DNA of 42,729 bases. It comes from a virus (lineage: Duplodnaviria; Heunggongvirae; Uroviricota; Caudoviricetes). Location: the IMG/VR virus record IMGVR_UViG_2541047951_000003; one strand, written 5' to 3'. The notes under the pieces are model-generated. The model saw only the letters and a program-made list of their open reading frames with translations, was not told where the DNA came from and made no database searches. A program made the translations under genes and the position numbers. Numbering within the stretch: position 1 is the stretch's first letter; each line of letters opens with the position of its first letter. Shown here piece by piece: positions 1 through 11,172 of the stretch.

Positions 1-1143
1 CTATGCTGTTTTGATATCTACGATAATCCAGTCTTTACCACGATCATCATTGTATCGGTCGGTCATTTTTCTGGATTTATGGCCTAACAACTTTTGCGTA
101 TCCAGACCCTGTTCCCGATATAACCGTTCTGACAGAGATCGCTGCTCATGAAATGTGGGCGCAGTTCCTTGCTCCCATTTTATGCCACATTTTTCCCGGG
201 CCTTTTTAAAAGCCGTTGTCAGAGTATTCGCAGAAACCTGGTCTCCTCTGTTTGCTTGAGAGGTAGTGTGACGGTAATGGACCAGATATTTACTAACAAC
301 AGCATCCCTGCACTGAGATATAACTTCACGAAGGGTAATATTCAGAGCATCGCATTTCAGGTTAAGCGGAATAGCAAGTTTTGAACCGGTTTTTTCCTGA
401 GTAATGTGCAACATGTCGTCCCATATATCAGAGAATTTCAAATTGCAGATATCGCCTAAACGTTGTCCAGTAACAAGAGCAAGTAGCATGCCGCATTTTA
501 AATAGGGCTGCCGTCTGCTTACGCTGTCAAATATTGCCTGCCATTCGGGCAGTGACAATCTTTGGCGGTTTACTCGATTTCGTGGTTGTTTTGTTGCCTG
601 CGCTGGGTTAAATCCTGGCGGAACATGTCCTGCGTGTTGTGCTTCTTTGAAGACGTCGATCAACACCATTCTCACGACTTGCGCCATCCTGTTATGACCT
701 TCAGCCTTTACAGCATCAATTATTTCGGCAATATCAAGTGCGGTAATATCCTTGAGGTGTTGCATTCCACAATGCTCACGGAAAAGACGAATGGGTTTGC
801 CTTTTTGCCGATAGGAGTTGGGTCTTAGTTCATTATGTTGCAGCCTGTCCTCTTGGATAGAAATATATTTATCAAGCCATTCTGTCACCGTAATGTCTGA
901 GCGCCTGCCTTTCATTCTTTCCAGACGCTCATTGACGCTTAATATTTGTCTGGTACGTTGTTCAGCAATAATGGTATTTGCTTCAGTAGCAACTTGTTTT
1001 GCTTCATTCTCATCAGTTCCTAAGCTATGAAAACGACCGGATAGTGGATGTTTGTATTGCCAATATACCTTTCCGGTTCGCTTATCTAATTTGCAATATA
1101 AATTGGGTATAGAGATTTTGTGAGATCGGGGTCTAGCAGCCAT
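1..1143 (-). CDS. int: Tyrosine site-specific integrase (lambda Int family); stop codon at window positions 1-3
   Basis: 380-aa ORF with C-terminal catalytic-domain signature (HxLRH-like 'TFHEQRSLSERLY', 'LLGHKS...RY'); first gene after xis as in lambda; 11-nt overlap with xis. Confidence 0.9.
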   Translation of the reverse strand: MAARPRSHKISIPNLYCKLDKRTGKVYWQYKHPLSGRFHSLGTDENEAKQVATEANTIIAEQRTRQILSVNERLERMKGRRSDITVTEWLDKYISIQEDRLQHNELRPNSYRQKGKPIRLFREHCGMQHLKDITALDIAEIIDAVKAEGHNRMAQVVRMVLIDVFKEAQHAGHVPPGFNPAQATKQPRNRVNRQRLSLPEWQAIFDSVSRRQPYLKCGMLLALVTGQRLGDICNLKFSDIWDDMLHITQEKTGSKLAIPLNLKCDALNITLREVISQCRDAVVSKYLVHYRHTTSQANRGDQVSANTLTTAFKKAREKCGIKWEQGTAPTFHEQRSLSERLYREQGLDTQKLLGHKSRKMTDRYNDDRGKDWIIVDIKTA

Positions 1144-1369
1144 CAGCGATTATCCTTTGGAGTTTTGGGTTTGCGTTTATTGGGAGTTGCGGTTCTGCAA
1201 GCGTTCCTACAAAACGGGAATTTCGGTCAATCATCCAGTAGCGACCAACTTTTATAGCGGGTGGGGCCATCATTTTCCCTTGCGCGTATTTTTTCAGAAC
1301 TCGCTCACTTGGTGCTAAGTCCCCAAATTCTTCTTTAGCCCAGTCCTGTAAAGTGATTAGTCGAGACAT
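1133..1369 (-). CDS. xis: Excisionase (lambda Xis-like)
   Basis: 78 aa; 'ITLQDW' and 'PPAIKVGRYWMI' parallel lambda Xis 'LTLQEW' and 'PPPVKDGREYLF'; overlaps int start. Confidence 0.75.
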   Translation of the reverse strand: MSRLITLQDWAKEEFGDLAPSERVLKKYAQGKMMAPPAIKVGRYWMIDRNSRFVGTLAEPQLPINANPKLQRIIADGC

Positions 1370-1508
1370 TTGTCCTCCTCTTAGCTGCTGAGGGAGTTTG
1401 TGACCGATATATCTGACATGATATTAAGCTCATGGCAGGTACATCTCTTGACTGGTCATAGAGATAAATTTAATGCTGAGAAATGCAGTATTGAATTTAT
1501 CAATTTTT

Positions 1509-1748
1509 CTATTTCCTGCGCATGTCACGTAACTTCTTAATGTGTTCTGCCGTTTCGATCTCTTCTGCTATCCGATCTGCATCAGCTTTATTCACAGGTT
1601 CAAAGTCATGATTAAAGCGGAACATGCTGGCGATACATGTTCTGCCTTTTCGGATGTAGTGAACTTTGTTGTGGGTAGAACGCAGGATTTTGCAGGGAGT
1701 GCCGTGGTGGTCGACGTACCAGGTGTTAGGGTCAATCACTCTGAACAT
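1509..1748 (-). CDS. Hypothetical protein, 79 aa
   Basis: ORF in same-strand run between xis and a TraR-like gene; overlaps upstream ORF by 17 nt; no recognised motif. Confidence 0.5.
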   Translation of the reverse strand: MFRVIDPNTWYVDHHGTPCKILRSTHNKVHYIRKGRTCIASMFRFNHDFEPVNKADADRIAEEIETAEHIKKLRDMRRK

Positions 1749-2058
1749 TCTTGACCTTGTGTTGTGCGGATTGATATTCAGTGCTGATATTCACCTTTAT
1801 AGCGAACACCTTTACCGGTTTATCGCCAAAGTGCGGATGTGTGATTGTCTTCACTTCATATCCGTCATACGGAACATCAATTCTGCGACTGGAATCGTCG
1901 CGCTTCGGATATCCCTTTGTGATAATCAGGCGGTCATATTCCCGGAACATAATTCGCTTATTCCAGTAGTCATTACACAAGCGATACTCTTCCGTTTTCT
2001 CTCCGCGAATCATGGCATCGAAGTATTCACTTTTAACAGCAAGTTGCAGGTTAGCCAT
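1732..2058 (-). CDS. Hypothetical protein, about 108 aa, possibly ASCH/PUA-like fold (weak)
   Basis: ORF coupled to upstream gene (TGATG overlap; track start at 2061 is GTG, ATG at 2058); N-terminal 'F-x2-I-x2-G-x-K-T-x-E-x-R' pattern reminiscent of ASCH domains. Confidence 0.5.
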   Translation of the reverse strand: MANLQLAVKSEYFDAMIRGEKTEEYRLCNDYWNKRIMFREYDRLIITKGYPKRDDSSRRIDVPYDGYEVKTITHPHFGDKPVKVFAIKVNISTEYQSAQHKVKNVQSD

Positions 2059-2279
2059 CACTTAATCCCCCTTTGTTTGCGGATAAGCTCCAGATCTTGC
2101 TGGCAACTGGCGCAAGTCCGACAACCCTGAACGGCCAGGCGTCTTCGTTCATCTATCGGATCGCCACACTCACAACAATGAGTGGCAGATACAGCCAGGT
2201 AGTTCAGGCGGCGCATTTTTATTGCTGTGTTGCGCTGTAATTCTTCTATTTCTGATGCTGAATCAATGATGTCTGCCAT
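2058..2279 (-). CDS. TraR/DksA-family C4 zinc-finger protein
   Basis: 73 aa with 'CxxC...(17)...CxxC' (CECGDPIDERRRLAVQGCRTCASC) typical of TraR/DksA family. Confidence 0.7.
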   Translation of the reverse strand: MADIIDSASEIEELQRNTAIKMRRLNYLAVSATHCCECGDPIDERRRLAVQGCRTCASCQQDLELIRKQRGIK

Positions 2280-2331
2280 CTTTCATTAATCCCTGAACTG
2301 TTGGTTAATACGCTTGAGGGTGAATGCGAAC

Positions 2332-2355
2332 AATAAAAAAGGAGCCTGTAGCTCC
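2332..2355 (-). terminator. Candidate rho-independent terminator (minus strand)
   Basis: GGAGC-loop-GCTCC stem at 2341-2355 followed on the minus strand by a T-run (plus-strand A-run 2334-2340). Confidence 0.4.
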
Positions 2356-2585
2356 CTGATAATTTTGCTTTTCATGTTCATCGTTCCTTAAAGACGCCGT
2401 TTAACATGCCGATTGCCAGGCTTAAATGAGTCGGTGTGAATCCCTTCAGCGTTACCGTTTCGCGGTGCTTCTTCAGTACGCTACGGCAAATGTCATTGAC
2501 GTTTTTGGAAACTGCTGTCTGACTTTTTTGATTTCAGAATTAGCCTGACGGGCAATGCTGCGAAGGGCGTTTTCTTGCTGAGGTG

Positions 2586-2669
2586 TCACTGAACAAGCCC
2601 CATGTCGGCAAGCATAAGCACACAGAATATGAAGCCCGCTGCCAGAAAAATGCATTCAGTGGTTGTCAT
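2586..2669 (-). CDS. Small hydrophobic peptide, 27 aa (MTTTECIFLAAGFIFCVLMLADMGLVQ)
   Basis: ATG overlaps stop of upstream 63-aa ORF (ATGA); single predicted membrane helix; below the 60-aa track threshold; found by manual translation. Confidence 0.3.
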   Translation of the reverse strand: MTTTECIFLAAGFIFCVLMLADMGLVQ

Positions 2670-2857
2670 ACCTGGTCTCTCTCATCTGCTTCTGCTTTCG
2701 CCACCATCATTTCCAGCTTTTGTGAAAGGGATGTGGCTAACGTATGAAATTCTTCGTCTGTTTCTGCTGGTATTGGCACAAACCTGACTCCAATTTGAGC
2801 AAGGCTATGTGCCAAATCAATACTCGTTCTTAACTCAACAGGAGATGCTTTGTGCAT
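2666..2857 (-). CDS. Hypothetical small protein, 63 aa (lambda orf63-like position)
   Basis: ORF in the small-ORF cluster downstream of exo on the pL-operon strand. Confidence 0.5.
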   Translation of the reverse strand: MHKASPVELRTSIDLAHSLAQIGVRFVPIPAETDEEFHTLATSLSQKLEMMVAKAEADERDQV

Positions 2858-3018
2858 ACCGCCCCCCGTTTATTATTTATCTCCTCAGCCAGCCGCTGGG
2901 CTTTCAGCGGATTTCGGATAACAGAAAGACCGTGAAATACCCAGCCTCGCTTTGTAACGGAGTAGACGAAAGTGATCGCGCCTACCCGGATATTATCGTG
3001 AGGATGGGTCATCGCCAT
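2830..3018 (-). CDS. Hypothetical small protein, 62 aa (lambda orf60a-like position)
   Basis: ORF immediately downstream of exo on the same strand, overlapping exo stop. Confidence 0.5.
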
Positions 3019-3689
3019 TGCTCTCCAAATACAAAACCAATTTCAGCCAGTGCTTCGTCCATTTTTTCGATGAACTCCGGCACCATCTCGTCAAAACTCG
3101 CCATGTACTTTTCATCCCGCTCAACCACGACATAATGCAGGCCTTCACGCTTCATTCGTGGGTCATAGTTGGCAAAGTACCAGGCATCTTTTCGTGTCAC
3201 CCACATGCTGTACTGCACCTGGGCCATGTAAGCCGACTTTATGGCCTCGAAACCACCGAGCCGGAACTTCATGAAATCCCGGGAGGTAAACGGGCATTTC
3301 AGCTCAAGGCCATTGCCGTCACTGCATAAACCATCGGGAGAGCAGGCGGTGCGCATACTTTCGTCGCGATAGATGATCGGGGATTCAGTAACATTCACGC
3401 CGGAAGTGAATTCAAACAGGGTTCTGGCGTCGTTCTCGTACTGTTTTCCCCACGCCAGCGCCTTAGCATTAACTTCCGGAGCCACACCGGTGCAAACCTC
3501 AGCCAGCAGGGTGTGGAAGTAGGACATTTTCATGTCAGGCCACTTCTTTCCTGAGCGGGGCTTTGCTATCACGTTGTGAACTTCTGAAGCGGTGATGACG
3601 CCGAGCCGTAATTTGTGCCATGCATCATCCCCCTGTTCGACAGCTCTCACGTCGATCCCGGTACGCTGCAGGATAATGTCCGGTGTCAT
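3009..3689 (-). CDS. exo: Lambda exonuclease (Red-alpha)
   Basis: 226 aa, near-identical to my recollection of lambda Exo ([37 protein letters not shown]...). Confidence 0.95.
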
Positions 3690-4471
3690 GCTGCCACCTT
3701 CTGCTCAGTGGCTTTCTGTTTCAGGAATCCAAGAGCTTTCACTGCTTCGGCCTGTGTCAGTTCTGACGATGCGCGAATGTCGCGGCGAAATATCTGGGAA
3801 CAGAGCGGCAATAAGTCGTCATCCCATGTTTTGTCCAGGGCAATCAGCAGAGTGTTAATCTCCTGCATGGTTTCATCGTTAACCGGAGTGATGTCGCGTT
3901 CCGGCTGACGTTCTGCAGTGTATGCGGTATTTTCGACAATGCGCTCGGCTTCATCCTTGTCATAGATACCAGCAAATCCGAAGGCCAGACGGGCACACTG
4001 AATCATGGCTTTATGCCGTAACATCCGTTTGGGATGCGACTGCCACGGCCCCGTGATTTCTCTGCCTTCGCGGGTTTTGAATGGTTCGCGGCGGCATTCA
4101 TCCATCCACTCGGTAACGCAGATCGGATGATTGCGGTCTTTGCGGTAAATCCGGCATGTACATGATTCATTGTCCTGCTCAAAGTCCATACCATCAAACT
4201 GCTGGTTTTCATTGATGATGCGGGACCAGCCATCAACGCCCACCACCGGAACAATGCCGTTCTGCTTATCAGGGAAGGCGTAAATTTCTTTCGTCCACGG
4301 ATTAAGGCCGTACTGGTTGGCGACGATCAACAATGCGATGAACTGCGCATCGCTGGCATCACCTTTAAATGCCGTCTGGCGAAGAGTGGTGATCAGTTCC
4401 TGTGGGTCGACAGAATCCATGCCGACACGTTCAGCCAGCTTCCCTGCCAGCGTTGCGAGTGCTGTACTCAT
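3686..4471 (-). CDS. bet: Recombination protein Bet (Red-beta single-strand annealing protein)
   Basis: 261 aa, matches lambda Bet ([59 protein letters not shown]...). Confidence 0.95.
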
Positions 4472-4476
4472 CCGTT

Positions 4477-4773
4477 TTATACCTCTGAATCAATATCAGC
4501 CTGATGGTGAGCAATGGTTTCAACTATGTACCGGATGTGTTCTGCCATGCGCTCCTGAAACTCAACATCGTCATCAAACGCACGGGTAATGGCTTTTTTG
4601 CTGGCCCCGTGGCGTTGTAAATGATCGATGCATAGCGATTCAAACAGGTGCTGGGGCAGGCCTTTTTCCATGTCGTCTGCCAGTTCTGCCTCTTTCTCTT
4701 CACGGGCGATCTGCTGGTAGTGACGCGCCCAGCTCTGAGCCTCAAGACGATCCTGAATGTAATAAGCGTTCAT
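4477..4773 (-). CDS. gam: Gam (RecBCD inhibitor), short GamS form of 98 aa
   Basis: [60 protein letters not shown]... matches lambda Gam C-terminal 98 aa. Confidence 0.9.
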
Positions 4774-4848: not shown

Positions 4849-4992
4849 TTAGTGAATGCTTTTGCTTGATCTCAGTTTCAGTATTAATATCCATTTTTTA
4901 TAAGCGTCGACGGCCTCACGAAACATCTTTTCATCGCCAATAAAAGTGGCGATAGTGAATTTAGTCTGGATAGCCATAATTGTTTGATCCAT
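4849..4992 (-). CDS. kil: Kil (host-killing/FtsZ inhibitor), 47 aa
   Basis: [47 protein letters not shown]; ATG at 4992 with AGGAG upstream; the track's 89-aa ORF is an upstream extension. Confidence 0.8.
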
Positions 4993-6162: not shown

Positions 6163-6744
6163 ATGAACAACTCATGGTGGCAGGAACTAATGCATTTTTT
6201 CCTGCAAGGAATGACACTTAAACAGTTGATTCATATGCTAATCATCCTGATCATATTGATTATTGTTATGCCGGTAAGCGTAAAAGAATGGATAAACCTG
6301 CATAATCCAGAAATCCTTCCTCATTACTGGATGTATTACATCCTGTTGTTTTGCGTTAGCTATGTGCTTAACGGCGTTGTTAATTCCGCTTATCACGCTG
6401 TGACTGAAAGAATTGAGGTATTCGCTGCTCAGAAGCGCAAATCTAAAGAAGAAAAATATGTGCAAGATTTGTTTGATTCGTTAACTCTTGGAGAAAGAGC
6501 GTATTTGGCATTCGCTGTAGCCGCTAATAACCAGCTACAAACGGAAAAGGGCGCTCATGAATCAATTTCATTGCTCAAAAAAGGACTCCTCGTTCGAAGG
6601 CCTCCTGCTGTTGGATATCCTGATACCGACCGTTTCGTTATCCCTGAAAGCTATAGACATGAGTGCTACATTAGGTTTGCCGGGAAGGCAGACAGCCTTA
6701 TGGATGAACTTATCGCTCAGGATAAGCATGGCAAAAACAAGTAA
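6163..6744 (+). CDS. sieB: Superinfection exclusion protein B (SieB)
   Basis: 193 aa with hydrophobic N-terminal membrane segments (LIHMLIILIILIIVMPV...), matches lambda SieB; opposite strand to N as in lambda. Confidence 0.85.
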   Translation: MNNSWWQELMHFFLQGMTLKQLIHMLIILIILIIVMPVSVKEWINLHNPEILPHYWMYYILLFCVSYVLNGVVNSAYHAVTERIEVFAAQKRKSKEEKYVQDLFDSLTLGERAYLAFAVAANNQLQTEKGAHESISLLKKGLLVRRPPAVGYPDTDRFVIPESYRHECYIRFAGKADSLMDELIAQDKHGKNK

Positions 6745-6760
6745 TTAGCAAATGAATTTA

Positions 6761-7033
6761 TCATCTCGCCGTCAGTTGTTTTGATTTCCGGTAGCCTGCC
6801 GCGTAAAGAGCTACGTTCGGAAGACAAGTTGAACCTTCATATTTTCTGGTCAACGTTGTCAGAGTTATCACTTCTGCTCTCATTGCTGGTTTGAGCTTGC
6901 ATTGCAAGACCACTCGTGAAGGGGTTGGCCTGTGTAGCTTGTCGGAGCTGATCGCCTCCTGACTTTGCAGATTTGCGCGACGAGCTCTACGGCGAGAAGC
7001 TGCGGTGCCTTTAAATTCTGTTTTTCTGGACAT
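6761..7033 (-). CDS. N-type transcription antitermination protein (non-lambda allele), about 90 aa
   Basis: ATG at 7033 with GGAGG 6 nt upstream; N-terminal arginine-rich motif 'KGTAASRRRARRANL' fits the N-protein ARM pattern (lambda 'QTRRRERRAEK', phi21 'GTAKSRYKARRAEL'); positioned after pL/nutL; rest of protein unlike lambda N. Confidence 0.65.
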   Translation of the reverse strand: MSRKTEFKGTAASRRRARRANLQSQEAISSDKLHRPTPSRVVLQCKLKPAMRAEVITLTTLTRKYEGSTCLPNVALYAAGYRKSKQLTAR

Positions 7034-7131
7034 GGATTCCTCCCGAATAAACTTTGGCGATGCAATCTCGAAGCTCCTCCTGAGACGGTTGCTTCGGCAT
7101 TGCATCCCACAGCTTATGTGGTTGGGTGATC

Positions 7132-7177
7132 TGGCTTTTCAGCCACGTAGTCGAGAGTCGACGTTGTTTAAAGAGCC
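7132..7177 (-). promoter_or_regulatory. nutL candidate: boxA-like GGCTCTTTA (7169-7177 on minus strand) followed by boxB-like hairpin GGCUGAAAAGCC (7132-7145)
   Basis: Read on minus strand: boxA-like element then stem-loop with GAAAA loop upstream of the N-like gene; parallels lambda nut architecture. Confidence 0.5.
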
Positions 7178-7199
7178 TGCCAGTCTGTTCCATTTGGCT

Positions 7200-7330
7200 T
7201 CCAGCGTCCTGCTGACGGTTAAATAGTACGATATGTACTTTACAAGATCAATACAATTTGTTGTAAGTTGGCGTGGTTTTTTATAACGCTTTGTATTTAA
7301 TAGTGTTGTTTTTTAGCGTGGATGTATTGC
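7200..7330 (-). promoter_or_regulatory. Probable pL/oL region
   Basis: Intergenic AT-rich region upstream of N with repeated TTGTAT/TACAA motifs also present in the cI-cro intergenic region; exact operator boundaries not resolved. Confidence 0.35.
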
Positions 7331-7436
7331 CTCGGCGATGTAAGGAGAGATCAGAATTGCGTGGTTTAGTGGGTTGCATCTATTTATTTTTCAATAAATA
7401 TAATTGGTTATGTGTTTTTAGGTGGGCGAACGTGAG

Positions 7437-7464
7437 GCAAAGAAAACCCGGCGCTGAGGCCGGG
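7437..7464 (-). terminator. Rho-independent terminator after the rex-position cassette (minus strand)
   Basis: CCCGGC-GCTGAG-GCCGGG stem (7447-7464) followed on the minus strand by TTTTCTTTG. Confidence 0.55.
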
Positions 7465-7469
7465 TTGTA

Positions 7470-8222
7470 TTATGCTGCAAGTCTCTTAACCCAAGTCTCT
7501 CTTTTGGAGAATGGTAGAACTTGGCTTGATTCATGGAAGAGTAAGGAGAGTTGTTGCATTTGATCACCAATTGCTTCGCTGTCTATAACAACAAATCTGT
7601 TGTTATACTCCTCACTTGAAGCTTTAAGATCAATTAGTTTCCCAAGCAATGAGTAAGCACTATTCCAGCTTCCTCCGTGTTTCACGCTTGATGTAAAAAC
7701 GTATTTAGGTATGTCGGTTTTTATTGTTACAGGGACGGTAATTTGATGTCCACTCAAGCCATATACGTTTTCACGAAGAGAAAGTGCGTCTCTAAGCTCT
7801 GTGTGATATAGATAATCAATAACCATACTTTCAAACTTTTCAGCTTGAACTGGCTGATACCAGTCTAACGACAAAGTTGATGCGAGTATACCAGCTCTAA
7901 TTATGTTCGATGTAATCGCACCGACATCCTTTTCTGTTGCCCAAGCAATGATTTCTCCTCGAGCATTGAGTTCTGCGCCTTCTTTAAGCAGTAATTGTCG
8001 TATCTCATCAAGTCGTTTTTTGGTAAGCGAGATCCCTCTTGCCTCCATATTCATTAAGGCATCGCATCTGTCACTAACTAAATACCTACCATTGACTTCA
8101 CGGATAAAGGCACCGACATGCTCTCCATCATCACAGTAAGTGAATGGACTGATAATTCTCAAGGTCTTGCCTATTGGATGGCATTCGAAACCTAGTTGTG
8201 AGATCACTGTTGAGCACATCAT
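7470..8222 (-). CDS. Hypothetical protein, 250 aa; second gene of a two-gene cassette in the rexAB position
   Basis: Long ORF, ATG(8222) overlaps the upstream gene's stop (ATGATG/TGA); AT-rich by eye; no obvious TM helices; no motif recognised. Confidence 0.75.
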   Translation of the reverse strand: MMCSTVISQLGFECHPIGKTLRIISPFTYCDDGEHVGAFIREVNGRYLVSDRCDALMNMEARGISLTKKRLDEIRQLLLKEGAELNARGEIIAWATEKDVGAITSNIIRAGILASTLSLDWYQPVQAEKFESMVIDYLYHTELRDALSLRENVYGLSGHQITVPVTIKTDIPKYVFTSSVKHGGSWNSAYSLLGKLIDLKASSEEYNNRFVVIDSEAIGDQMQQLSLLFHESSQVLPFSKRETWVKRLAA

Positions 8223-8776
8223 ATTCCAAACCCCATTTGCCCCGACTCATCTTCAAGCGGTAAAGGTATTCTCCCAGAGTAAGTTATGTTCAGATGTTTA
8301 CAGAAGTAATTCCAATACCCTACCAGGTCATCTGGGTTTATGTCATCTTCGATTGGAAACGCTATTCTATCACTATAGTATCCAGCTTCTTCATAGTATA
8401 CATGGTAGTGAGCACCGTAAATGATATCTTGGTACTTCGGATGATCGACCTTGTAACTATTCGTGTGTTTGTCAAAGTGATAGGTATCTACCGCGAAAAC
8501 CCTCTTGTTATGATAGAAAGCAATAATATTTATTTTAGGGTAAGAAATCGGGTCATCAGGTTCTGAATCCTGATCTGGTTTCCATTTCAGTTCAAACTTT
8601 AGCCCTTGTATAGGTATACAATCCTCATCCAAGGGGATGATATGGGCTTGTAGCCACATATCAGAGCGACTTGGTTTCTGTTTCCATTTAACGCCAGAAA
8701 AGTTAACTATTTTTTTACAATAAAGTACTTTATCAACTTCTACTTGGCTTGGCTGATAATCATCTATTTTTGCCAA
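8219..8776 (-). CDS. Hypothetical protein, 185 aa (start probably TTG); first gene of the rex-position cassette
   Basis: ORF begins 38 nt after cI stop on the same strand; first in-frame start is TTG at 8776 (next Met at codon 40); Tyr/His/Asp-rich; no motif recognised. Confidence 0.65.
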   Translation of the reverse strand: MAKIDDYQPSQVEVDKVLYCKKIVNFSGVKWKQKPSRSDMWLQAHIIPLDEDCIPIQGLKFELKWKPDQDSEPDDPISYPKINIIAFYHNKRVFAVDTYHFDKHTNSYKVDHPKYQDIIYGAHYHVYYEEAGYYSDRIAFPIEDDINPDDLVGYWNYFCKHLNITYSGRIPLPLEDESGQMGFGI

Positions 8777-8815
8777 TGTTTACCGCCCTGTAAATTGTAG
8801 ATAAAAGTGGTTTCA

Positions 8816-9475
8816 TCACCCAAACGTCTCTTCAGGCCATTGGCTGGCGATAACTTTCCCCACAACGGAACAACTCTCATTGCATGGGATCATTGGGTAT
8901 TGTGGGTTTAGTGGCTGTAGAAACACCTGACCGCTATCCCTGATCAGTTTCTTGAAGGTAAATTCATCACCACCAAGTCTGGCTATGCAGAAATCGCCGG
9001 GCTCAACAGCTTGCTCAGGGTCAACCAGAATTAACATCCCGTCAGGAAAGCTGGGTTTGGAACCTGTTGGTGCGGTCATTGAGTTACCTTCAACCTCAAG
9101 CCAGAATGCAGAGTCACTGGCTTTTTTGGTTGTGCTTACCAATCTCTCCGCATCGCCTTTGGTAAAGGTTCTGAGTTCTGGAGAGAACATCCCAGCCTGA
9201 ACATGAGAAAAAACAGGGTACTCATATTGTTTTTTAACTGGGGCCGATGAGTATTCGCCAACAGGTGAAAATGTCCCGTCGTGGTTGAATGATATGTTAT
9301 CAATACCAAGGTATTTAAACACCACACCAATATCACTAAGAGATGGATGACGAGATCCGCGCAACCAGTGTCCAATCCCACCCTGCGTCATACCTAGCTC
9401 TTCGGCTAACTTCTCTTGAGTTATGCCGAGCTCTTTCATTCTGGATCTAGCCAGTTCATACCATTTCATTTTCAT
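8816..9475 (-). CDS. cI: CI repressor (HTH N-terminal domain of non-lambda specificity + lambda-type LexA-like C-terminal domain)
   Basis: C-terminal about 130 aa ([22 protein letters not shown]...[12 protein letters not shown]) matches lambda CI; N-terminal HTH ([23 protein letters not shown]) differs; start taken at MKMKWY (9475) or 9469. Confidence 0.85.
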
Positions 9476-9586
9476 GTCCTTATTATTACGCTCTGTACTG
9501 GAACCATCCATGCACAATGTGTATTTTTACTTGTATTCGCAAAGTACATATTGTATTTTTTTATTCGTGTTTACTATGGAGGGCAT
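9476..9586. promoter_or_regulatory. Divergent cI-cro control region (pRM/pR with operators)
   Basis: 111-bp AT-rich intergenic region between divergent cI and cro; three TGTATT(T) repeats at 9518-9528, 9531-9537, 9551-9562 and a TACA-N3-TGTA dyad at about 9545-9555. Confidence 0.5.
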
Positions 9587-9802
9587 ATGAGCAACCTACG
9601 AAAATATCGAGAGTCACTGAATATCTCTCAAACAACACTTGCTAAGGCAGTTGGATGCACACAGGGAGCTATCGGACATTGGGAATCTGGTCGTCGCTTC
9701 CCAGACCTTAAAACATGCCGTGCTCTTGTTGCGTGCCTAAACAAGTTAGGCGCAAAAGTCAGTCTTGATGACGTGTTCCCGCCGGAACACAAAGCCGCTT
9801 AA
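9587..9802 (+). CDS. cro: Cro-like HTH repressor (XRE family), 71 aa
   Basis: ATG at 9587 with GGAGGG upstream; HTH 'ISQTTLAKAVGCTQGAIGHWESG'; divergent from cI; not lambda Cro sequence. Confidence 0.8.
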   Translation: MSNLRKYRESLNISQTTLAKAVGCTQGAIGHWESGRRFPDLKTCRALVACLNKLGAKVSLDDVFPPEHKAA

Positions 9803-9812
9803 TAAGCGGATC

Positions 9813-9857
9813 CGCTCTTTGTAACAACGGACATTCGTCCTACGTCGCTGAAAAGCG
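9813..9857 (+). promoter_or_regulatory. nutR candidate: boxA CGCTCTTT (9813-9820) and boxB-like hairpin UCGCUGAAAAGCGA (9844-9857)
   Basis: boxA-like octamer just after cro stop followed by stem-loop with GAAAA loop, upstream of cII. Confidence 0.5.
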
Positions 9858-9943
9858 AGTTCCAAGATATCTGACCAACTAAGGCCATATGCGTTTCCAC
9901 GCATACCTTTCAACTAACTATTCACTATTGGAAATCTTAAGAA

Positions 9944-10240
9944 ATGGAAAGAACAAGTTACAGCAAACTATCACAGCGTGACGTTGATCGCGCAGAAACA
10001 GATTTACTTATCAATCTGTCAGCTATTACCCAGCGCGGTCTGGCAAAGATGATTGGCTGTCATGAATCGAAGATAAGCAGAACGGACTGGAGATTTATTG
10101 CTTCGGTCTTGTGTGCTTTCGGAATGGCATCAGACATCAGTCCGATTAGCAGGGCTTTTAAGTATGCGCTTGATGGACTCACCAATAAAAAACGCCCGGC
10201 GGCAACCGAGCGTTCTGAACAAATCCAGATGGAATTCTGA
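9944..10240 (+). CDS. cII: CII transcriptional activator (chimeric: non-lambda N-terminus, lambda-identical C-terminus)
   Basis: 98 aa; C-terminal 'LTNKKRPAATERSEQIQMEF' matches lambda CII; N-terminal two-thirds differs. Confidence 0.85.
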   Translation: MERTSYSKLSQRDVDRAETDLLINLSAITQRGLAKMIGCHESKISRTDWRFIASVLCAFGMASDISPISRAFKYALDGLTNKKRPAATERSEQIQMEF

Positions 10241-10272
10241 GGTCATTACTGGATCAATCCACAGGAGTCATT

Positions 10273-11172
10273 ATGACAAATACAGCAAAAATACTCAACT
10301 TCTGCAGAGGTAACTTTGCCAAACAGGAGCGTAATGTGGCAGATCTCGATGATGGTTACGCCAGACTATCAAATATGCTGCTTGAGGCTTATTCAGGCGC
10401 AGATCTGACCAAGCGACAGTTTAAAGTGCTGCTTGCCATTCTGCGTAAAACCTATGGATGGAATAAACCAATGGACAGAATCACCGATTCTCAACTTAGC
10501 GAGATTACAAAGTTACCCGTCAAACGGTGCAATGAAGCCAAGTTAGAACTCGTCAGAATGAATATTATCAAGCAGCAAGGCGGCATGTTTGGACCAAATA
10601 AAAACATCTCAGAATGGTGTATCCCTCAAAACGAGGGAAAATCCCCTAAAACGAGGGATAAAACATCCCTCAAATTGGGGGATTGCTATCCCTCAAAACA
10701 GGGGGACACAAAAGACACTATTACAAAAGAAAAAAGAAAAGATTATTCGTCAGAGAATTCTGGCGAATCCTCTGACCAGCCAGAAAACGACCTTTCTGTG
10801 GTGAAACCGGATGCTGCAATTCAGAGCGGCAGCAAGTGGGGGACAGCAGAAGACCTGACCGCCGCAGAATGGATGTTTGACATGGTGAAGACCATCGCGC
10901 CATCAGCCAGAAAACCGAATTTTGCAGGGTGGGCTAACGATATCCGCCTGATGCGTGAACGTGACGGACGTAACCATCGCGACATGTGTGTACTGTTCCG
11001 CTGGGCATGCCAGGACAACTTCTGGTCCGGTAACGTGCTGAGCCCGGCCAAACTCCGCGACAAGTGGACCCAGCTCGAAATCAACCGTAACAAGCAACAG
11101 GCAGGTGTGACAGCCTGCAAACCAAAACTCGACCTGACAAACACTGACTGGATTTACGGGGTGGATTTATGA
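10273..11172 (+). CDS. O: Replication initiator protein O
   Basis: 299 aa, matches lambda O (MTNTAKILNF...); contains the ori iterons. Confidence 0.95.
   Translation: MTNTAKILNFCRGNFAKQERNVADLDDGYARLSNMLLEAYSGADLTKRQFKVLLAILRKTYGWNKPMDRITDSQLSEITKLPVKRCNEAKLELVRMNIIKQQGGMFGPNKNISEWCIPQNEGKSPKTRDKTSLKLGDCYPSKQGDTKDTITKEKRKDYSSENSGESSDQPENDLSVVKPDAAIQSGSKWGTAEDLTAAEWMFDMVKTIAPSARKPNFAGWANDIRLMRERDGRNHRDMCVLFRWACQDNFWSGNVLSPAKLRDKWTQLEINRNKQQAGVTACKPKLDLTNTDWIYGVDL
10621..10750 (+). repeat. ori-lambda: four about 18-19-bp iterons (ATCCCTCAAAACGAGGGA-type) plus adjacent AT-rich region, inside O
   Basis: Direct reading: atccctcaaaacgaggga / aatcccctaaaacgaggga / atccctcaaattggggga / atccctcaaaacaggggga followed by A-rich stretch. 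Confidence 0.85.

What the first reader, a model, noticed from the sequence alone, without database searches (positions are those of the whole stretch)
6761..7177. Divergent N-type antiterminator with arginine-rich motif, and matching nutL/nutR boxA-boxB candidates
The 90-aa protein upstream of sieB has an N-terminal ARM (KGTAASRRRARRANL) fitting the N-protein family pattern, but the rest is unlike lambda, 21 or P22 N as I recall them. Candidate nut sites are present on both sides of the immunity region: nutL with boxA-like GGCTCTTTA plus hairpin GGCUGAAAAGCC (7132-7177, minus strand) and nutR with boxA CGCTCTTT plus hairpin UCGCUGAAAAGCGA (9813-9857). The two boxB stems differ although the loops are the same (UGAAAA), which is unusual if one ARM must recognise both.
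Basis: partly seen in the sequence, partly recalled or inferred. Interest (0 to 1): 0.45.

Follow-up and report, generated by a model that had tools for sequence, protein, structure and literature searches.

The report
Known Stx-phage-type N antiterminator and nut sites
This is the ordinary early-gene "N" anti-termination switch of a lambda-like E. coli phage, with a protein and two RNA target sites already annotated in the Shiga-toxin phage VT2-Sakai; its one mildly unusual trait is that the RNA hairpin it binds has a plain four-base loop.

Summary
A 90-aa ORF (6761..7033, minus) has an N-terminal arginine-rich motif. Two sites of identical layout lie downstream of pL (7176..7132, minus) and between cro and cII (9813..9858, plus).

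None of it is new. The protein matches Pfam N_peptide over its full length (E 1.5e-32). It is 100% identical to the annotated N of phages ev017 and PhiR63_2, and 98.9% identical to VT2-Sakai N. Both nut sites are base-for-base those annotated in VT2-Sakai as putative nutL and nutR. It is 41% identical to H-19B N, which has been tested experimentally.

The protein is not "unlike P22": its last 24 residues are 79% identical to P22 gp24.

Each boxB folds as a 5-bp stem with a GAAA tetraloop. The two differ by one flipped base pair (G-C to C-G), far from the loop. That is normal; P22-type and phi21-type nutL and nutR stems differ more.

Across about 155 related loci, ARM type and boxB loop type co-vary without exception. 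RRRxRRAxLQ goes with GNRA tetraloops and RRRERLKAKA with GACAA. This N therefore belongs to a distinct specificity class that I found no test of.

Verdict: already known, low interest.

The parts
6761..7033 (-). Gene N: a 90-aa transcription antiterminator. ARM at residues 11-25 (AASRRRARRANLQSQ). Central LHRPTPSR motif. C-terminal CLPNVALYAAGYRKSKQLTAR module.
   Evidence: Pfam PF25694 N_peptide, E 1.5e-32, 112.5 bits against a 27.9 cutoff, residues 1-90. PHROG 271 'anti-termination protein N-like', E 2.3e-24. 100% identical to ev017 and PhiR63_2 N, 98.9% to VT2-Sakai N, 41% to H-19B and 933W N. Alignment A1.
7168..7176 (-). nutL boxA, GCUCUUUAA
   Evidence: Sequence. Identical to the VT2-Sakai annotated 'putative N-utilization leftward' site. 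Conserved in all 79 loci of the first IMG/VR set in which nutL could be read.
7150..7162 (-). nutL spacer hairpin, GUCGA-CUC-UCGAC
   Evidence: Folds at -4.9 kcal/mol, z -2.1. Among relatives only the loop varies (CUC, AACUC, AACAC, AAUC, AGCAC) and the stem is kept. H-19B nutR RNA has 'two hairpins', spacer and boxB, by RNase T1 footprinting (PMC3526286).
7132..7145 (-). nutL boxB, UGGCU-GAAA-AGCCA: 5-bp stem with a GNRA tetraloop
   Evidence: Folds at -7.1 kcal/mol, z -3.4. Stem covariation is shown on alignment A3. Always paired with this ARM class.
7223..7251 (-). Probable pL promoter: -35 TTGATC, 17-nt spacer, -10 TACTAT. The conserved transcript 5' end ...CAGCAGGACGC follows.
   Evidence: The position corresponds to the VT2-Sakai annotated 'putative major leftward promoter'. 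CAGCAGGACGC is shared with lambda, P22 and VT1-Sakai. It falls below the consensus-scan threshold. Inferred by homology only.
9813..9821 (+). nutR boxA, CGCUCUUUG
   Evidence: Sequence. Identical to the VT2-Sakai annotated 'putative N-utilization rightward' site.
9829..9840 (+). nutR spacer hairpin, GGAC-AUUC-GUCC
   Evidence: Folds at -5.2 kcal/mol, z -2.5. Identical in H-19B nutR.
9845..9858 (+). nutR boxB, UCGCU-GAAA-AGCGA: 5-bp stem with a GNRA tetraloop
   Evidence: Folds at -6.5 kcal/mol, z -2.7. Present in all 96 related loci of this ARM class where nutR was found. H-19B nutR differs by one extra C in the loop (GACAA).
9888..9913 (+). Probable tR1 region. It includes the hairpin AUGCGUUUCCACGCAU, between nutR and cII.
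   Evidence: Corresponds by offset to the VT2-Sakai annotated 'putative rho dependent terminator for pR transcript'. Inferred.

Best explanation
This is the early (N-type) processive antitermination module of a lambdoid coliphage. The window is about 99.5-99.9% identical to phages PhiR63_2 and PhiR57_1 (95% of the first 25 kb covered) and 99.4-99.8% to ev017 and ev207 (74-79% covered).

Proposed mechanism:
- After repressor loss, pL transcribes nutL and then N, and pR transcribes cro and then nutR.
- In the nascent RNA, each boxB folds into a 5-bp stem closed by U-A and capped by a GAAA tetraloop.
- The N-terminal arginine-rich helix of N (AASRRRARRANLQSQ) binds the loop and the three invariant loop-proximal pairs (G-C, C-G, U-A).
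- NusB-NusE bind the boxA GCUCUUU.
- The central region of N (LHRPTPSR) recruits NusA, and the conserved C-terminal module (CLPNVALYAAGYRKSKQLTAR) contacts RNA polymerase.
- The RNA-tethered complex lets polymerase read through tR1 and the leftward terminators. This gives expression of ea10, cIII, kil, gam, bet and exo to the left, and cII, O, P and Q to the right.

What is shown here: family membership, identity to annotated N and nut sites, hairpin folding, stem covariation, and strict co-variation of ARM type with boxB loop type.

What is inferred: RNA binding, the Nus contacts and antitermination itself. These rest on experiments with the 41%-identical H-19B N and with lambda and P22 N.
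For: Family membership:
- Pfam N_peptide matches the full length, E 1.5e-32.
- PHROG 271, E 2.3e-24.

Identity to annotated sequences:
- Identical or near-identical to annotated N genes.
- Both nut sites are identical to VT2-Sakai's annotated nutL and nutR.

Synteny:
- The order sieB, N, nutL, pL/oL, two accessory genes, cI, cro, nutR, cII, O, P is as in lambda, P22 and VT2-Sakai.

The sites themselves:
- The composite nut pattern occurs 2 times against 0.01 expected.
- Both boxB hairpins fold.
- Six distinct tetraloop boxB sequences are 100% paired. The two outer pairs show compensatory changes (U-A, A-U, C-G; and G-C, C-G). The three inner pairs are invariant.

Co-variation of ARM and loop:
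- 113 loci carry RRR[AE][RH]RA.LQ ARMs. All 111 readable nutL and all 96 nutR found are GNRA tetraloops.
- 42 loci carry RRRERLK-type ARMs. 34 nutL and all 29 nutR found are GACAA.
- No locus mixes the two classes.

Link to experiment (H-19B, PMC3526286):
- H-19B N has ARM 12-RSRRRER-18, and its mutants R3H, R15C, R15P and R18P are defective. R3, R15 and R18 are conserved here.
- Its last 27 residues form the RNAP-binding CTD. The last 21 are identical here.
- H-19B nutR has the same spacer hairpin.

Viability:
- Phage records with a 100%-identical N and nut region name a laboratory host, E. coli ECOR13. This implies viable phages.
Against: No experiment on this particular N and nut pair was found in the searchable literature. 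In VT2-Sakai the nut sites are labelled only 'putative'.

The protein lacks about 37 residues that H-19B N has between the HRPT motif and the C-terminal module.

NusA-binding similarity to lambda is weak: LHRP against VNRP, within a BLASTP hit of E 5e-4 for a single comparison.

Minimum-energy folds of the whole 61-nt nut RNAs pair boxA with the 3' half of boxB instead of forming boxB, although the z-scores are only -1.3 and -1.6.

The loci counted are highly redundant. Only about 4-5 independent lineages stand behind the tetraloop class.

The six sequences used for the covariation count were chosen by hand, and some were first picked up with a search that required perfect pairing.
Confidence: 0.93

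Rival explanations
1. The 90-aa protein is a decayed, non-functional remnant of a longer H-19B-type N (127 aa), and the nut-like sequences are relics.
For: Relative to H-19B and 933W N it lacks about 37 internal residues. The whole-nut minimum-energy folds do not favour boxB.
Against: The 90-aa form is kept at 98-100% identity in at least 80 fetched IMG/VR loci, out of 452 stretches that encode a relative. It is also in isolated phages with a named laboratory host.

Functional N proteins of similar size exist: P22 gp24 is 100 aa and VT1-Sakai N is 90 aa.

Both nut sites are invariant in boxA, stems and boxB, while flanks and the spacer loop vary.

nutR is retained behind at least four different cro 3' ends.
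Confidence: 0.03
2. N is functional, but its ARM recognises the spacer hairpin, or the alternative boxA:boxB long-range helix, rather than the GAAA boxB hairpin.
For: Both nut sites carry a second, conserved hairpin in the spacer. In H-19B, N with NusA and NusG protects both spacer and boxB from RNase H (PMC3526286). boxA GCUCUUU is complementary to the AAAAGC of boxB, and the minimum-energy folds use that pairing.
Against: The spacer hairpins of nutL and nutR share no stem or loop sequence (GUCGA-CUC-UCGAC against GGAC-AUUC-GUCC). One ARM could not read both by sequence.

The same nutR spacer hairpin serves phages with different ARM classes (H-19B and VT2-Sakai), whereas the boxB loop switches with the ARM in every locus.

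In lambda the spacer is the NusA site (PMC3526286 introduction).
Confidence: 0.04

Closest known systems
N protein and putative nutL/nutR of Stx2 phage VT2-Sakai (AP000422.1 and AP000363.1; also Stx2 phages 1717, 2851 and the PA series)
   Same: N is 90 aa and 98.9% identical, with one substitution (L47R). nutL and nutR are base-for-base identical from boxA through boxB. The gene order is the same.
   Different: The operators and immunity genes between nutL and nutR differ: cI N-terminal domain and accessory genes. The window phage is of the PhiR63_2/ev017 type rather than an annotated Stx phage.
H-19B and 933W N with H-19B nutR (experimentally characterised: Neely & Friedman 1998 and 2000; Sen laboratory, PMC3526286)
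   Same: Same Pfam family. N-terminal MxRxTxFKG...SRRR and the last 21 residues are conserved, and R3, R15 and R18 are retained. The nutR spacer hairpin, the CUACG linker and the boxB stem UCGCU/AGCGA are identical.
   Different: 41% identity overall. H-19B N is 127 aa with an extra block of about 37 aa. Its ARM continues RRRERLKAKALANG rather than RRRARRANLQSQ. Its boxB loop is the pentaloop GACAA rather than GAAA. H-19B boxA is CGCUAUUU.
Phage lambda N with boxB (GNRNA pentaloop that folds as a GNRA tetraloop with one base extruded)
   Same: The ARM is strikingly similar: AASRRRARRANLQSQ against AQTRRRERRAEKQAQ, 10 of 16 identical when the alignment is extended one residue to lambda W18. This includes the whole Arg patch 6-11. 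The one difference inside the patch is at E9, reported as largely inert (PMC12027372). The U-A closing pair and the C-G next pair are shared. The loop here is lambda nutR's GAAAA minus one A.
   Different: There is no Trp at the position of lambda W18 (Glu here). The loop is a tetraloop, not a pentaloop, so no base is extruded. The C-terminal half is of P22 type, not lambda type.
P22 gp24 (N) with boxB GACAA (PDB 1A4T)
   Same: The C-terminal 24 residues are 79% identical. The boxB upper stem GCU/AGC is shared, and N lies next to sieB in both.
   Different: The ARM is different (GNAKTRRHERRRKLAIER). The loop is a pentaloop with a looped-out C contacted by His and Arg (PMC12550061). There is no spacer hairpin in the P22 nut sites.
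Salmonella phage epsilon34 gp43 (N-like), predicted by Villafane et al. 2008 to have a 'novel BoxB specificity'
   Same: Same ARM class (AAGRRRERRAALQN). The nutL boxB is a GAAA tetraloop, CGGCU-GAAA-AGCCG. The nutR boxB is identical.
   Different: It is 120 aa, with the H-19B-like central block. It has an H-19B-type nutL spacer hairpin and no canonical boxA.

Membership tests
Lambdoid phage N antiterminator (Pfam PF25694 N_peptide; PHROG 271) | Profile match above the curated threshold over the whole protein | tested here: met
   112.5 bits against a gathering score of 27.9, E 1.5e-32, residues 1-90 on profile positions 5-100. PHROG 271, E 2.3e-24.
Lambdoid phage N antiterminator (Pfam PF25694 N_peptide; PHROG 271) | N-terminal arginine-rich motif | tested here: met
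   Residues 13-19 are SRRRARR. They align with H-19B 12-RSRRRER-18 and lambda R6-R11 (PMC3526286).
Lambdoid phage N antiterminator (Pfam PF25694 N_peptide; PHROG 271) | First gene of the pL operon, next to the immunity region | tested here: met
   The order sieB, N, nutL, pL, accessory genes, cI, cro, nutR, cII, O, P matches the annotated lambda, P22 and VT2-Sakai maps.
Lambdoid phage N antiterminator (Pfam PF25694 N_peptide; PHROG 271) | C-terminal RNA-polymerase-binding module | tested here: met
   The last 21 residues, CLPNVALYAAGYRKSKQLTAR, are identical to H-19B N, where the last 27 residues are the RNAP-binding CTD (PMC3526286). Conservation is shown; binding is not.
Lambdoid phage N antiterminator (Pfam PF25694 N_peptide; PHROG 271) | Central NusA-binding segment | tested here: inconclusive
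   EAISS..LHRPT.SR is shared with H-19B N. There is only a weak LHRP/VNRP match to the lambda N segment.
Lambdoid phage N antiterminator (Pfam PF25694 N_peptide; PHROG 271) | nut-dependent and Nus-dependent read-through of terminators | not testable with these tools
   This needs reporter or in vitro transcription assays. No published test of this N type was found.
nut site (boxA, spacer, boxB) | boxA matching the consensus GCUCUU(U/A) | tested here: met
   nutL has GCUCUUUAA and nutR has GCUCUUUG.
nut site (boxA, spacer, boxB) | boxB hairpin with a GNRA-type loop, supported by covariation | tested here: met
   Folds at -7.1 and -6.5 kcal/mol. All cells are paired and 2 of 5 pairs show compensatory changes. 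Versions slid by 1-3 columns give 12-53% paired.
nut site (boxA, spacer, boxB) | One site in each early transcript: downstream of pL, and between cro and cII | tested here: met
   Exactly two matches in the window, on the expected strands and at the expected positions. They equal the VT2-Sakai annotated sites.
nut site (boxA, spacer, boxB) | boxB co-varies with the ARM of the cognate N | tested here: met
   There are no discordant loci among about 155. The loci are redundant, so this rests on about 4-5 independent lineages.
Lambda-type N and boxB specificity class | GNRNA pentaloop with an extruded base, and Trp18 stacking | tested here: not met
   The loop is 4 nt (GAAA), and Glu is at the position aligned with lambda W18.
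P22 and H-19B-type specificity class | GACAA pentaloop with a looped-out C | tested here: not met
   The loop lacks the C. The ARM differs after RRR.
phi21-type specificity class | CUAACC hexaloop boxB | tested here: not met
   VT1-Sakai has CUAACC loops at both nut sites, and its N is annotated in that record as similar to phi-21 N. The window does not have them (PMC12550061).

The most novel reading that the evidence does not exclude
The VT2-Sakai, epsilon34 and window-type N and nut pair may be a distinct specificity class for which I found no experimental test. Its boxB would be a bona fide GNRA tetraloop (GAAA, once GCAA) with no extruded base, read by a lambda-like ARM that lacks the stacking tryptophan. 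It would be the 'minimal' natural version of the GNRA-mimic loops solved for lambda, P22 and phi21. If so, this N should discriminate against GACAA boxB and perhaps partly accept lambda's GAAAA. Because in lambda the extruded base has been linked to NusA recruitment (from memory: Legault et al. 1998), it might also depend differently on host factors.
Probability: 0.55. Interest if true: 0.3.

Novelty: already known. Interest (0 to 1): 0.12.

Why it matters
It matters little beyond correct annotation. NCBIfam has no model that hits this protein. In the complete E. coli genomes listed, no feature under the match is named N; all but the repressor are 'hypothetical protein'.

This N and nut module is very common in E. 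coli prophages, including Stx2 phages of O157:H7. There, early antitermination lies upstream of Q and so of toxin expression.

The one point of modest scientific value is comparative. The family offers natural, strictly co-varying ARM and boxB pairs (GAAA, GACAA, GAAAA, CUAACC) on otherwise homologous backbones. That makes a ready-made set for studying peptide-RNA specificity or for building orthogonal RNA tethers.

Tried and rejected
Rfam. A scan of 6500..10400 at E up to 1 gave no match. nut sites are evidently not modelled, so this is uninformative.

PDB sequence search with N. No hit at E up to 10. Solved N peptides are short and belong to other ARM classes.

NCBIfam. No hit.

MAFFT alignment of whole nut sites (A2). 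It was not structure-aware across the variable spacer loops, so I did not use it for pair counts. I used an ungapped boxB alignment (A3) instead.

My first hairpin-tabulating script. It missed all tetraloops because of a greedy regular expression. I corrected it.

IMG/VR contig L062. It joins this N and nutL to lambda cro and lambda nutR, and looked like natural evidence of cross-recognition of lambda boxB. I rejected it as evidence because the arrangement is absent from 5,426 complete E. coli genomes and 50,697 phage records. The junction also lies in the cI C-terminal domain, which the two phage types share almost identically, so it may be an assembly chimera.

Literature. The full text of Neely & Friedman 2000 is not held. 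What their 'alternative NUT RNA structures' are could therefore not be compared with the boxA:boxB pairing seen. Searches for a test of VT2-Sakai-type N or of a tetraloop boxB found nothing.

Full report
**What is there**

The window is a lambdoid coliphage genome. Its first 25 kb match Escherichia phages PhiR63_2 and PhiR57_1 at 99.5-99.9% identity over 95% of the query. They match ev017 and ev207 at 99.4-99.8% over 74-79%.

Around the finding the gene order is:
- sieB (6163..6744, plus strand; Pfam SieB)
- a 90-aa ORF (6761..7033, minus strand)
- two accessory genes (7470..8776, minus strand)
- a cI-type repressor (8816..9475, minus strand; HTH plus Peptidase_S24)
- cro (9587..9802, plus strand)
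- cII (9944..10240; Phage_CII), then O and P

This is the standard immunity region of a lambda-like phage, and the 90-aa ORF sits where gene N sits.

The ORF begins MSRKTEFKGTAASRRRARRANLQ and is preceded by a strong ribosome-binding site.

The composite pattern GCTCTTT, 15-45 nt, CTGAAAAG occurs exactly twice in 42.7 kb, at 7135..7176 on the minus strand and 9814..9855 on the plus strand. Shuffles predict 0.01 matches.

Both sites have the same 42-nt layout:
- nutL: boxA GCUCUUU, ACAAC, a small hairpin, the linker CUACG, then boxB.
- nutR: the same order with a different small hairpin.

Folded alone, each boxB forms a 5-bp stem closed by U-A and capped by GAAA:
- nutL: UGGCU-GAAA-AGCCA, -7.1 kcal/mol, z -3.4.
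- nutR: UCGCU-GAAA-AGCGA, -6.5 kcal/mol, z -2.7.

**It is a member of the N family and is already annotated**

Family and identity:
- The protein matches Pfam PF25694 (N_peptide) over its full length: 112.5 bits against a cutoff of 27.9, E 1.5e-32. It also matches PHROG 271, 'anti-termination protein N-like'.
- The 601-bp region is 100% identical in phages ev207, ev017, PhiR57_1 and PhiR63_2. All but one of those records annotate the gene as antitermination protein N.
- It is about 94% identical at the DNA level in VT2-Sakai, Nil2, 1717, 2851 and many Stx2 phages of O157:H7.
- At the protein level it is 98.9% identical to VT2-Sakai N, which is also 90 aa. It is 41% identical to H-19B and 933W N, which are 127 aa.

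The VT2-Sakai record AP000422.1 annotates 'putative N-utilization leftward' and 'putative N-utilization rightward' features, together with pL, operators and a rho-dependent tR1. Its sequences from boxA through boxB are identical to those in the window.

The protein is common. In IMG/VR, 452 stretches encode a relative of it, and the best 80 are 98-100% identical.

**It is not 'unlike P22'**

The alignment of nine N proteins shows a modular protein:
- A variable N-terminal ARM.
- A central segment, EAISS..LHRPT.SR, shared with H-19B N.
- A C-terminal module, CLPNVALYAAGYRKSKQLTAR, identical to H-19B N, 92% identical to VT1-Sakai N and 79% identical to P22 gp24.

In H-19B N the last 27 residues form the RNA-polymerase-binding domain. 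The ARM is 12-RSRRRER-18, and the mutations R3H, S11F, R15C, R15P and R18P abolish antitermination (PMC3526286). R3, R15 and R18 are conserved in the window protein.

Compared with H-19B N, the window protein lacks an internal block of about 37 residues. P22 N (100 aa) and VT1-Sakai N (90 aa) lack it too.

Unexpectedly, the ARM is closest to lambda's. AASRRRARRANLQSQ aligns with AQTRRRERRAEKQAQ (BLASTP E 5e-4 for the pair). The only difference inside the Arg patch falls at lambda E9, which deep mutational scanning found largely inert (PMC12027372). The position of lambda W18 is Glu here.

**The differing stems are normal and support the hairpin**

In P22, nutL boxB is GCGCU-GACAA-AGCGC. nutR has the same GACAA core on a different stem, CCGC/GCGG.

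VT1-Sakai N is annotated in its record as similar to phi-21 N. There the CUAACC loop sits on CUCAAC/GUUGAG at nutL and on UCACC/GGUGA at nutR.

I compared six distinct tetraloop boxB sequences: window nutL and nutR, POCJ13 nutL, epsilon34 nutL and nutR, and an Enterobacter adelaidei prophage nutL. The result:
- Every cell is a standard pair.
- The outermost pair is U-A, A-U or C-G.
- The second pair is G-C or C-G.
- The three pairs next to the loop (G-C, C-G, U-A) never vary.
- Sliding the 3' partners by 1-3 columns drops pairing to 12-53%.

Two caveats apply. The set is small and hand-picked, and part of it was first found with a search that required perfect pairing.

The pattern of variable base and invariant top fits what is known for lambda. 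There the loop and the closing U-A pair are what N reads (PMC12027372).

**ARM and boxB loop co-vary strictly**

I tabulated every fetched locus that has an N homologue beginning M[ST]R[RK]T.

| ARM class | Examples | Loci | nutL | nutR |
|---|---|---|---|---|
| RRR[AE][RH]RA.LQ | VT2-Sakai-like, POCJ13, epsilon34-like, Enterobacter | 113 | 111 readable, all GNRA tetraloops (110 GAAA, 1 GCAA) | 96 found, all UCGCU-GAAA-AGCGA |
| RRRERLK[AV][KQ]A | H-19B, 933W and sal5-like | 42 | 34 GCGCU-GACAA-AGCGC; 7 deviant GCUCCGUCAACGAGC; 1 unreadable | 29 found, all GACAA loops |

No locus mixes the classes.

The epsilon34-like and H-19B-like proteins are homologous outside the ARM. Their nutR sites are nearly identical apart from the one-base difference in the loop. 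ARM and loop have therefore switched together on a common backbone.

Outside these two classes:
- A lambda-like ARM in Winslowiella goes with GCGCU-GAAAA-AGCGC.
- P22-like ARMs in E. albertii and Lonsdalea go with GACAA.

The counts are inflated by near-identical prophages. About 4-5 independent lineages support the tetraloop class.

Villafane et al. (2008) had already predicted a 'novel BoxB specificity' for epsilon34 N from its divergent N-terminus (PMC2629481).

**Mechanism**

The best explanation is canonical N antitermination, as set out in the Best explanation section. Two details are specific to this subfamily.

First, there is a conserved second hairpin in the spacer: GUCGA-CUC-UCGAC at nutL and GGAC-AUUC-GUCC at nutR, against GAUUC-N6-GAAUC in H-19B nutL. 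These have three unrelated stem sequences at one position, flanked by invariant ACAAC and CUACG. This agrees with the 'two hairpins' footprinted in H-19B nutR RNA (PMC3526286).

Second, the boxB loop is a true tetraloop rather than the pentaloops and hexaloop that mimic a GNRA fold in lambda, P22 and phi21 (PMC12550061; PMC12027372).

RNA binding, Nus factor use and read-through are inferred from the H-19B, lambda and P22 experiments. They are not shown for this protein.

**Rivals**

A decayed remnant is unlikely. The module is strongly conserved and is present in isolated phages.

Recognition of the spacer hairpin instead of boxB is unlikely for two reasons. The two spacer hairpins share no sequence. 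And the same nutR spacer serves phages with different ARMs, whereas the boxB loop tracks the ARM.

**Novelty and score**

Gene and sites are already in GenBank with the right names, so the finding is 'already known'.

The only residue of novelty is that I found no experimental test of this specificity class. It is also the simplest natural boxB. That makes a tidy hypothesis for peptide-RNA recognition work, not a surprise. Interest is 0.12.

Noticed in passing
window 7470..8222 (-) and 8219..8776 (-): Two overlapping genes occupy the rexA/rexB slot between cI and pL. One is 250 aa with a DUF1828 domain and the other is 185 aa and weakly DUF6978-like. They hit the PADLOC candidate defence system PDC-M24 (M24B E 4.7e-10; M24A E 4.8e-4) and PHROGs 1960 and 2017 of unknown function. 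A likely prophage-encoded defence pair.
   Followed up: partly
window 8816..9475 (-): The repressor is a hybrid. From residue 83 on, its C-terminal 137 residues (linker end plus the Peptidase_S24 domain) are identical to lambda cI except for one residue. The N-terminal HTH domain is unrelated in detail. This shared segment is a hot spot for recombination or for assembly chimeras between lambda-type and Stx-type prophages.
   Followed up: partly
L062 (IMGVR_UViG_2531839234_000006), 1..4150: A 6.8-kb contig joins VT2-Sakai-type N and nutL to lambda cro, lambda nutR (GCCCUGAAAAAGGGC) and lambda cII, with the junction inside cI. If real, this N would have to use a lambda boxB. The arrangement is absent from 5,426 complete E. 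coli genomes and 50,697 phage records, so it may be a chimera.
   Followed up: yes
window 7040..7117 (-), the N leader between nutL and the N start codon: A long imperfect hairpin, GGGAUGCAAUGCCGAAGC...GCUUCGAGAUUGCAUCGCC, sits just upstream of the N ribosome-binding site. The 161-nt fold has z -3.3. It occupies the place of the RNase III-processed hairpin of the lambda N leader (from memory). Its conservation was not examined.
   Followed up: no
window 7125..7185 (-) and 9805..9865 (+): In minimum-energy folds of the whole nut RNAs, boxA (GCUCUUU) pairs with the loop and 3' half of boxB (AAAAGC) and encloses the spacer hairpin. This would compete with boxB formation. The z-scores are only -1.3 and -1.6. 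It may relate to the 'alternative NUT RNA structures' in the title of Neely & Friedman 2000, which I could not read.
   Followed up: partly
L090 (Salmonella phage 103203_sal5) about 4880..4900, and six similar IMG/VR loci including L133 and L136: These have an H-19B-like ARM (RARRRERLKAKALAN). Their nutL boxB position reads GCUCCGUCAACGAGC, which has no perfect 5-bp stem and a loop core of GUCAA. Their nutR is UCGCU-GACAA-GGCGA, with a U-G closing pair. Unexplained.
   Followed up: no
window 7011..7193 (-): A 60-aa ORF spans nutL and the N leader. In several Stx-phage records a 'hypothetical protein' is annotated under this region alongside N. It is probably not a real gene.
   Followed up: no
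L088 (mEpX2) about 4700..4730, L089 (ECP1) and L095: Another N class has the ARM DDNARNRRRARRQAQREQ. It goes with a boxB-like hairpin, CCCGC-CGAAAU-GCGGG, at both nutL and nutR. ECP1 N combines this ARM with the middle and C-terminal parts of VT1-Sakai N, which illustrates module shuffling inside the N gene.
   Followed up: no
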